Assembly (NCBI RefSeq): GCF_028641065.1 | Contig: NC_073390.1 | Location: 17,174,001 to 17,238,000, forward strand | Direction: 5' to 3' | Length of the DNA stretch: 64,000 bases | From: Leucoraja erinacea | Taxonomy: Eukaryota | Part shown: in pieces, positions 23,984 through 24,974 of the stretch | How the letters are laid out: each line of letters begins with the position of its first letter | How positions within the stretch are numbered: the stretch's first letter is position 1 | Made by a program: the position numbers and the translations under genes | The notes under the pieces: model-generated | What the model saw: only the letters and a program-made list of their open reading frames with translations | Database searches by the model: none | Told to the model about the DNA's origin: nothing

Positions 23984-24974
23984 TCCTTAATTAACTTGAC
24001 CAAGCCTGCCATTGTCATTCTTGATAACGTTAGCCTTCTTCTTGTTTCTTGGGTGATTTCCCATCACTGTTTATTCTGACAAGTGGGATGAGGAAGCTTC
24101 CCATTGGCTCCACTTGTTCATTTGCTTCTTTAAATGACACCTGGCATCACGACCAGGTTCTTAAACCTATTGCAGAAGCCATCAGCATGGGAATCAGCAG
24201 CTGCAGACAGCACGGCCCACCGCCCAGATGATCACCTTCGTGAAGGCCATCAGGAATCCTGGCGACTGCGCAGGACTGGCAGCTTTCTGTAGACCTGGGG
24301 AAACAGTTGAAGTTCCCACAGCACATTGCCACGACCACCCTGAAGCCAGACATCCTCCTGGTCTCAGAGGCGACCAAAAACATTGTCTTGTTGGAACTGA
24401 CAGTGCCGTGGGAGGGCCGTCTGGAGGCCCTAGAGAGGAAGAAGACCAAGTATGAAGAGCTGGTCATAGACTGCCGTAAGCAATGCTGGAAGGCAAGGTG
24501 TACGCCCATCGAGGTTGGCTGCAGAGGTTTTGCAGGGCAATTGCTCTACAAAGCCTTGAGTGCACGGGGCATCAACGGAGTGGCGAGGAGAAGAGCCATC
24601 AAGAACACCACAGAGGCAGTGGAGAAAGCCTCGAGATGGCTCTGGATCAGGAGAGCAGGTCCATGGGGAGAAGTGAGTGCCACCTGGACTCAAGTCGTGA
24701 TCTGATCAACCTCGGCTGGGTCGCCTGGGTGAGGGTGTCTGATGTTGAAAGACCCGAAACACCCAATGACCCCAGGTTACATCACTGATGATGAGTTCAG
24801 GAGCATCAATAGATGTGTTTTATCAATTGTCCTTAATTAACTTGACCAAGCCTGCCATTGTCATTATTGATAATGTTAGCCTTCTTCTTGTTTCTTGGGT
24901 CATTCCCCATCACTGTTTATTCAGACGTGGGTTGAGGAAGCTTCCCATTGGCTCCACTTGTTCATTTGCTTCTT
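23984..24974 (+). repeat. ~146-bp direct repeats flanking the HERO-like insertion
   Basis: 23984-24130 vs 24830-24974, differing by a handful of substitutions and a 2-bp indel. Confidence 0.92.
24131..24829 (+). mobile_element. 5'-truncated RLE non-LTR retrotransposon, HERO-like
   Basis: TWHHDQVL (RHD motif) and KPDILL..LLELTVPWE..ERKKTKY..PIEVGCRG..ASRWLWIRR form a PD-(D/E)xK restriction-like endonuclease C-terminus, followed by a structured 3' UTR. Confidence 0.88.

What the first reader, a model, noticed from the sequence alone, without database searches (positions are those of the whole stretch)
24702..24800. Complete hammerhead-ribozyme core in a scrambled (pseudoknotted) order in the HERO 3' UTR
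Seen: all hammerhead parts are present and pair perfectly. Helix III is GGGTGT (24733-38) / ACACCC (24759-64), followed by C24739, giving a GUC cleavage triplet. Helix I is TGATGT (24740-45) / ACATCA (24779-84), directly followed by CTGATGA (24785-91). Helix II is GGGTC (24718-22) / GACCC (24751-55), directly followed by GAAA (24756-59), which gives the canonical G10.1-C11.1 pair. An extra helix CCTGGG/CCCAGG extends helix III. Established: type I, II and III hammerheads are circular permutations of the order CUGANGA, GAAA, UH. Here the order is UH, GAAA, CUGAUGA, which is none of them. A 5-nt linker (TGAAA) would join the distal ends of helices I and II, which are adjacent in the hammerhead fold, and the chain would enter and exit between A9 and G10.1. 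A possible closing helix there covaries between the two copies: T24712-A24794 (CTC/GAG) vs A27531-T27613 (CAC/GTG). Inference: a pseudoknotted hammerhead-like ribozyme or protein-binding fold at the 3' end of an RLE retrotransposon, which standard descriptors would miss. I do not know of a description of it but cannot check the literature.
Basis: partly seen in the sequence, partly recalled or inferred. Interest (0 to 1): 0.85.

Follow-up and report, generated by a model that had tools for sequence, protein, structure and literature searches.

The report
Split pseudoknotted hammerhead in HERO retrotransposons
A widespread family of jumping genes carries, right after its gene, a conserved RNA with all the parts of a hammerhead ribozyme in a rearranged and split order, which likely cuts the element's RNA and would let it close into a circle that is then copied into the genome.

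Summary
The window holds two 5'-truncated copies of a multi-copy HERO-type RLE retrotransposon. Its 3' UTR has the hammerhead blocks in the order S-G-C. That order is published (type SGC, Eckert 2023, shown to cleave), but only from metatranscriptomes and with helix II directly after CUGANGA. Here the chain is opened between A9 and G10.1 and clamped by two stacked helices (P0, P0a); a k-turn consensus links helix III to the I-II helix. The fold matched 32 of 44 ORF ends of HERO-like metagenome elements (0 of 4400 shuffles), with covariation in all six helices and a U3-A8 swap of the C3-G8 pair. All 26 genomic copies holding the exact 5' UTR start begin with the element's own 3' end, and 19 of 39 such copies run through the predicted cut a second time. 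Best reading: double self-cleavage, ligation to a circle, internally primed rolling reverse transcription (about 0.5). Cleavage and circles are untested; 15 of 39 5' ends cluster at -43 to -58, which the circle does not explain. I found no description in 10 paper searches.

The parts
24135..24827 (+). Copy 1: 5'-truncated HERO-type non-LTR retrotransposon fragment (end of ORF plus 3' UTR)
   Evidence: BLAST to 30 genomic copies; protein search of own genome, 150 scored matches at 82-89%
24244..24705 (+). Open frame for the C-terminal restriction-like endonuclease domain (PD..ELTVPWE); family stop codon lies at 24686-88, read through in this copy
   Evidence: intact relative P0002
24683..24692 (+). 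Closing helix P0, 5' strand
   Evidence: 10 bp with 24792-801; 8 of 8 counted pairs change on both sides
24693..24717 (+). Hairpin P0a, predicted to stack on P0; ends directly before G10.1; loop holds the palindrome TGATCA
   Evidence: two mismatches in this copy
24718..24722 (+). Helix II 5' strand (G10.1 = 24718), detached from A9
   Evidence: helix II directly after A9 in 0 of 32
24724..24729 (+). I-II interaction helix, 5' strand
   Evidence: (at least 5 bp in 28 of 32)
24730..24732 (+). k-turn consensus, non-bulged strand (N-G-A)
   Evidence: 25 of 32 aligned sequences; consensus recalled
24733..24745 (+). Block S: helix III 5' strand, C17 (24739), predicted scissile bond 24739/24740, helix I 5' strand
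24751..24764 (+). Block G: helix II 3' strand, G12-A13-A14-A15.1, helix III 3' strand
24765..24776 (+). k-turn bulged strand (3-nt bulge, G-A-N) and 3' strand of the I-II interaction helix
24779..24791 (+). Block C without helix II: helix I 3' strand and CUGAUGA
24792..24801 (+). Closing helix P0, 3' strand, starting directly after A9
   Evidence: at least 6 bp at offset 0 in 23 of 32
24803..24827 (+). Tail hairpin and fixed 3' end of copies (inferred internal priming site); no poly(A)
27386..27640 (+). Copy 2: shorter 5'-truncated copy with the whole ribozyme (27502-27620), G12 changed to A (CpG-type decay)

Best explanation
HERO-type retrotransposons carry in their 3' UTR a conserved type-SGC hammerhead fold that is split between A9 and G10.1, which is predicted to self-cleave after position 17 and likely serves to cut out and circularise a unit-length RNA that the element's reverse transcriptase would copy by internal priming and rolling past its start. 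Shown: the fold, its conservation and covariation; a fixed 3' end 89 nt downstream of the predicted cut; terminal redundancy of full-length copies; faithful copying across the cut. Inferred: a copy with at least 146 nt of redundancy is transcribed with two complete ribozymes, both cleave, and the ends are joined (by the reverse reaction, held by P0, II, III and the I-II helix, or by a host ligase). The protein then primes at the tail hairpin on nicked target DNA, goes once round and on for a variable distance, which regenerates two-ribozyme copies. My odds per step: hammerhead-derived fold 0.95, cleaves 0.8, circle is the template 0.5.
For: Fold: 32 of 44 ORF ends match, 0 of 4400 shuffles; 87.7% of cells paired, 246 two-sided changes against 76.8 shuffled and 50-61 slid; P0, P0a, the I-II helix and the k-turn were not in the descriptor yet recur. 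Catalytic signature: U4, G5, A6, A9, A13, A14, A15.1 in 32 of 32, N7 free, U3-A8 in 2, U3-G8 in 1; family B of the same genome differs at N7. Type SGC cleaves at the predicted site (PMC10085705). Template: 26 of 26 copies with the exact 5' UTR start are preceded by the element's own 3' end with a precise junction; of 39 such 5' ends 19 lie beyond the cut, 15 include a whole second ribozyme, one reaches -1747; no indel at the cut in 28 of 29 position-ordered copies; the junction also stands in 17 metagenome loci; deletion derivatives of about 940 nt show the same 1.x-unit pattern. Precedent: retrozymes, double cleavage then circle (PMC6155905).
Against: No cleavage, ligation or circle was observed; the RNA look-up was uninformative. 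15 of 39 second-pass 5' ends cluster at -43 to -58 (0 of 29 first-pass copies; Fisher p 5e-5), which a transcription start near -52 would explain more simply. A helix inserted between A9 and G10.1 has no tested precedent that I found; Eckert et al. assume at most 1-2 nt there. In the closest analogue, a Penelope-like element, ribozyme mutants did not affect insertion in vitro and uncleaved RNA was the main substrate. The U3-A8 swap is one evolutionary event (L170 and L172 are 84% alike). Core invariance and H17 not G are partly built into my descriptor. Joining the monomer's ends needs an exchange of about 28 base pairs of partners, which may be slow.
Confidence: 0.5

Rival explanations
1. The ribozyme is active, but the template is a linear, uncleaved partial-tandem transcript, as proposed for Penelope-like elements. 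Transcription would start near -52 or further upstream; redundancy is renewed by homology-guided template switching; cleavage is slow or protein-gated and trims or destroys RNA at another stage.
For: Cluster of 15 of 39 5' ends at -43 to -58 with unrelated flanks; strongly conserved 5' UTR motif that could be a promoter; Penelope precedent; type-SGC rates are slow, 0.007-0.19 per min. Intact copying across the cut fits this too.
Against: Gives cleavage no clear positive role despite deep conservation of catalytic residues; 19 of 39 ends run beyond the cut, up to -1747, so switching would have to be frequent and scar-free; no 5' end within 4 nt of the cut (0 of 39).
Confidence: 0.3
2. Double cleavage gives a linear monomer whose two ends stay paired (a nicked circle); the reverse transcriptase primes 89 nt from the 5' end and jumps the nick without ligation.
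For: R2 RT copies non-continuous templates (reference title seen; details recalled); the helices would hold both ends together.
Against: Jumps usually leave scars (recalled); 28 of 29 copies have none at the cut, 23 of the 24 copies measured keep the 33-nt spacing (6 of 30 not measured); no second-pass end at the cut.
Confidence: 0.08
3. The fold is a hammerhead-derived but non-cleaving protein-binding scaffold for the HERO protein or a host k-turn binder.
For: Break at A9/G10.1 may disable the core; a k-turn is a protein-binding motif (recalled); every genomic copy derives from RNA that was continuous across the cut.
Against: The conserved set is exactly the catalytic set, with N7 free, position 17 varying among C, U and A, and a compensated C3-G8 pair.
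Confidence: 0.1
4. Chance resemblance.
For: Short motifs: 80 viral loci match the motif order alone.
Against: 0 of those 80 have helices I and III; 0 of 4400 shuffles; covariation in six helices.
Confidence: 0.01

Closest known systems
Type-SGC hammerhead ribozyme (HRIMA-1 and variants; Eckert et al. 2023, PMC10085705)
   Same: Block order S-G-C, short linker from helix I to helix II, helix joining the far sides of stems I and II, double pseudoknot, same core.
   Different: There helix II follows CUGAnGA directly and the authors assume the block cannot be interrupted; here its 5' strand lies upstream of block S (0 of 32 directly after A9) with P0 and P0a at the break. There: metatranscriptomes, none in genomes of known organisms; here: hundreds of chromosomal copies in a retrotransposon. 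No k-turn is mentioned in that text.
Penelope-like elements (PMC11167929, PMC6765202)
   Same: Autonomous retroelement, partial-tandem structure, hammerhead in the repeated end, internal priming.
   Different: Different RT lineage and GIY-YIG nuclease; type I, often minimal hammerheads; here RLE nuclease and a complete double-pseudoknot ribozyme wholly in the 3' UTR.
Retrozymes (PMC6155905; 10.64898/2026.07.22.740005)
   Same: Hammerheads in terminal repeats, double cleavage and circular RNA, the model proposed here.
   Different: Non-coding and non-autonomous, type I or III ribozymes; here the unit codes for its own RT and nuclease.
R2 retrotransposons (closest solved proteins)
   Same: Single ORF with RT and restriction-like endonuclease; self-cleaving ribozyme processes the RNA.
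   Different: R2 has an HDV-like ribozyme at the 5' end and primes at the RNA 3' end; here a hammerhead 89 nt inside the 3' end and terminal redundancy.
HEROTn / HEROFr; Zebulon of Tetraodon (name and partial-tandem structure recalled, paper not held)
   Same: P0002 is 68% identical to BAC82599.1 of Tetraodon; dispersed insertion; partial tandem.
   Different: I found no report of a ribozyme in them; their own UTRs were not available to test.

Membership tests
Hammerhead ribozyme | Core C3 U4 G5 A6 N7 G8 A9, G12 A13 A14, A15.1-U16.1, H17 not G | tested here: met
   partly required by the descriptor, but seen unfiltered
Hammerhead ribozyme | Helices I, II, III with covariation | tested here: met
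   two-sided changes in 3 of 3, 4 of 5 and 3 of 5 counted pairs
Hammerhead ribozyme | C3-G8 tertiary pair | tested here: met
   29 C-G, 2 U-A (one event), 1 U-G of 32
Hammerhead ribozyme | Site-specific self-cleavage after position 17 | not testable with these tools
   no bench data; no raw RNA reads
Hammerhead types I, II, III | Circular order C-G-S, three-way junction | tested here: not met
   order is S-G-C; no Rfam hammerhead hit
Type-SGC hammerhead | Block order S, G, C with short I-II linker | tested here: met
Type-SGC hammerhead | Helix joining the far sides of stems I and II | tested here: met
   at least 5 bp in 28 of 32
Type-SGC hammerhead | Uninterrupted block C (helix II directly after A9) | tested here: not met
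   0 of 32; so it works like type SGC but is not filed as one
HERO clade of RLE non-LTR retrotransposons | Single ORF with RT, CCHC finger and PD..D/E nuclease | tested here: met
   P0002: RVT_1, C-x2-C-x7-H-x4-C and PD..ELT read from the sequence
HERO clade of RLE non-LTR retrotransposons | RT groups with HEROFr, HEROTn, HERODr in a tree | tested here: inconclusive
   no tree built; 68% identity to BAC82599.1 and 64% to BAC82598.1, which I take for HEROTn and HEROFr from accession order (AB097130-1) and recall
HERO clade of RLE non-LTR retrotransposons | No fixed target gene | tested here: met
   dispersed copies with unrelated flanks; PMC4640811 passage
Kink-turn | 3-nt bulge then tandem G-A, A-G pairs between two helices (consensus recalled) | tested here: met
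   25 of 32, about 0.02 per sequence by chance, sequences related; the kink and protein binding are untested
Retrozyme-like circular replication | Circular unit-length RNA in vivo | not testable with these tools
   contigs cannot tell a circle from partial-tandem DNA

The most novel reading that the evidence does not exclude
A whole clade of autonomous LINE-type elements, present from fishes to marine invertebrates, replicates through a protein-coding circular RNA made by a seventh natural hammerhead architecture (split SGC with a two-helix clamp, a k-turn and possibly a kissing loop), with internal priming and rolling-circle reverse transcription.
Probability: 0.45. Interest if true: 0.92.

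Novelty: new variant of a known kind. Interest (0 to 1): 0.82.

Why it matters
It would be the first non-circularly permuted hammerhead in chromosomes of known organisms, and it breaks the rule used to count only six possible permutations, so descriptor searches have a blind spot. It gives the HERO clade a ribozyme and a testable cause for its partial-tandem structure. If the circle is real, an autonomous non-LTR element would use a viroid-like RNA step, link retrozymes and Penelope-like elements to RLE elements, and offer an RT that primes inside a circular template, which matters for RNA-templated gene insertion. The k-turn answers a geometric puzzle that Eckert et al. left open (how the end of stem III meets the I-II helix). 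A 120-nt RNA is enough for the first decisive test.

Tried and rejected
Rfam: 0 hits at gathering score in the window, 5 weak unrelated hits at E up to 10. One search found nothing because I set the gap wrongly. A second hammerhead across the 3'-5' junction using the GAAA in the 5' UTR: no helix I partner, rejected by eye. Expected pile-up of 5' ends at the cut: 0 of 39. General RT stall at the ribozyme: 0 of 29 first-pass copies end at -43 to -58. Shared upstream flank of the -52 copies (one master copy): not seen. Viral contigs: no relative of the protein; 0 of 80 pattern hits fold (the list may be capped). RNA: no RNA holder listed on record; four runs laid were contigs only, kind guessed, and cannot show ends. 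Pfam has no hit for the nuclease piece. Earlier findings of the scan: none. Papers not held: Zebulon paper, Kapitonov 2009, Hammann 2012, Fell 2025. No tree and no covariance model were built.

Full report
Observation. The site lies in a 5'-truncated element (24135-24827); a second, shorter copy at 27386-27640 is 93% alike and has G12 changed to A. Rfam has no match. The element is a dispersed repeat of the 2.19-Gb genome: 1659 first-look candidates and 835 exact matches to a two-anchor pattern. An intact natural copy codes for 1092 aa or more with RT, CCHC finger and restriction-like nuclease. It is 68% identical to Tetraodon BAC82599.1, which I take for HEROTn from accession order and recall; the nearest solved proteins are R2.

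What is known. Eckert et al. 2023 (PMC10085705; I read parts 1-6 of 8 of the main text and ran one supplement search) describe the order S-G-C as type SGC, show cleavage at the predicted bond and the need for four helices, and found it only in metatranscriptomes. They assume that block C (helix I strand, CUGAnGA, helix II strand) cannot be interrupted. So the order is known; the form here is not theirs.

Conservation. A scan of metagenome contigs gave 79 loci of relatives and the genome collection 5 more. 44 ORF ends could be read (they include L148/L153, L169/L170 and L220 twice as duplicates). A descriptor asking for both cores, U16.1, H17 not G and helices I, II, III of at least 4 bp, with the helix II 5' strand upstream, matched 32 of 44 (30 strict, 2 with a relaxed G12 or C11.1), 0 of 4400 shuffles, and 18 of 7000 shuffles with the cores kept. 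Of the 12 misses, L188 and L210 match further downstream, L161, L163, L203 and L212 show the fold with one or two defects by eye, L200 and L220 (twice) have helices I and III, L182 is cut by the contig end, and L175 and L221 show nothing. A second family in the own genome has the same helices, G at N7 and a different P0. As a control, 0 of 80 viral loci with the motif order alone form helices I and III.

The corrected fold. Three features not asked for by the descriptor recur. A closing helix P0 starts directly after A9 (at least 6 bp in 23 of 32); a hairpin P0a follows its 5' strand and ends directly before G10.1; the I-II interaction helix has at least 5 bp in 28 of 32. Helix II directly after A9 was seen in 0 of 32. 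P0 and P0a abut without a spare base, so they are predicted to stack and to hold A9 and G10.1 about as close as a short insertion would (inference). On a MAFFT alignment of 32 sequences (window, family B, 25 of the 32 descriptor hits, 5 added by eye or wider scan; 7 hits left out, mostly close relatives; L188 and parts of L148 and L203 are misaligned) 87.7% of 903 cells pair, with 246 two-sided changes against 76.8 in shuffles and 50-61 when slid; 26 of 30 pairs change on both sides, in all six helices. The sequences are related and partly selected for pairing, so this is not a probability. Core counts of 32: U4, G5, A6, A9, A13, A14, A15.1 invariant; G12 31; N7 U17 C8 A5 G2; position 17 C13 U10 A9; C3-G8 29, U3-A8 2 (one event), U3-G8 1. 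Between helix III and the I-II helix, 25 of 32 fit the k-turn consensus exactly (3-nt bulge, tandem G-A and A-G; consensus recalled).

The template. All 26 copies holding the exact first 20 nt of the 5' UTR are preceded by the element's own 3' end. With a similarity search added I counted 39 independent 5' ends upstream of this junction; left out were 3 duplicates, one copy ending at +268 with 1914 nt upstream, and 4 copies that start inside the 5' UTR. Relative to the junction the predicted cut is at -89 and P0 starts at -146. 19 of 39 ends lie beyond the cut, 15 include a whole second ribozyme, 0 lie within 4 nt of the cut, and 15 cluster at -43 to -58. Among 30 copies taken in order of position, 29 are first-pass ends and none stops in that cluster; 28 of 29 aligned copies have no indel at the cut. 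The 3' end is fixed within a few bases and has no poly(A). Ribozyme, tail and a conserved 5' UTR motif follow each other in 17 metagenome loci, about 13 families. Several deletion derivatives of about 940 nt show the same 1.x-unit pattern. That Zebulon inserts as a partial tandem is recalled; the paper was not held.

Mechanism. The copied RNA was continuous across the predicted cut and across the 3'-5' junction, yet the catalytic residues are kept across elements of 42-80% protein identity. A ligated circle reconciles both, gives cleavage a use, explains priming without a free 3' end, and renews two-ribozyme copies (15 of 39). Retrozymes are the precedent (passages of PMC6155905 and PMC6765202). 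The main rival is the Penelope-like case, where uncleaved RNA was the substrate and ribozyme mutants still inserted (PMC11167929, parts 1-2 of 4); the cluster at -43 to -58 favours a start site there and is not explained by the circle. No RNA data could decide. I put the circle at 0.5, the linear uncleaved template at 0.3, a nicked template at 0.08 and a dead scaffold at 0.1.

Novelty. Ten full-text searches showed no ribozyme in HERO and no hammerhead split at A9/G10.1. I saw passages only of PMC3088659 (core insertions elsewhere), PMC13580325, PMC7650587, PMC4640811, PMC3636483, PMC2790886, PMC2684134 and two 2026 preprints (preprint supplements are closed). Subscription papers, Repbase Reports and Fell 2025 were not seen. 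Verdict: a real, deeply conserved new variant of the type-SGC hammerhead in a new host, with a testable and surprising replication model. Interest 0.82.

Noticed in passing
window 24702-24707 and P0a loops in alignment A2: The P0a loop holds a 6-nt or longer palindrome in 18 of 32 by script, with compensated variants TGATCA, TGGCCA (4) and TGTACA (1); window and L205 also have TGATCA. Possible kissing loop that could pair two ribozyme copies. Absent in about a third.
   Followed up: partly
L089:1501-1760 and 17 metagenome loci: The 5' UTR start is conserved across distant families as repeated small hairpins with GAAAG-like loops; candidate internal ribosome entry, protein-binding site or promoter.
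   Followed up: no
L220:1150-1255: A distant element (27% identity) has helices III (7 bp) and I (5 bp) with the I-II helix strand downstream of CUGAUGA, as in unsplit type SGC; helix II is imperfect. One example; the contig is filed in a bacterial MAG and is probably eukaryotic.
   Followed up: partly
window 23981-24134 and 24827-24978; L079, L080, L232: Copy 1 is flanked by a duplication of about 155 bp. Of 40 loci checked only 2 had a clear duplication (82 and 69 bp), some lacked an end; other runs join 828 to 4865 of L232, which suggests blunt insertion.
   Followed up: partly
L237, L238, L306, L314, L315, L319: Non-autonomous deletion derivatives (5' UTR to about +555 joined to about -380) with different 5' ends, so likely mobilised in trans.
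   Followed up: partly
L162:4580-4640; L141:1-45: One metagenome copy has its 5' junction, and one contig its start, one base after the predicted cut. Two cases only; none in the own genome.
   Followed up: no
L084, L096, L106: Three second-pass copies have small duplications or insertions next to the predicted cut; too few to call scars.
   Followed up: no
window 24690 and 24794: Copy 1 carries two private changes that happen to restore a P0 pair; the other 5 copies with the 3' change lack the 5' one.
   Followed up: yes
window 21880-22424, 17583-20542, 31484-31573: Dispersed and inverted SINE/LINE-like repeats; they resemble repeats of cartilaginous fishes (recalled, not tested).
   Followed up: no
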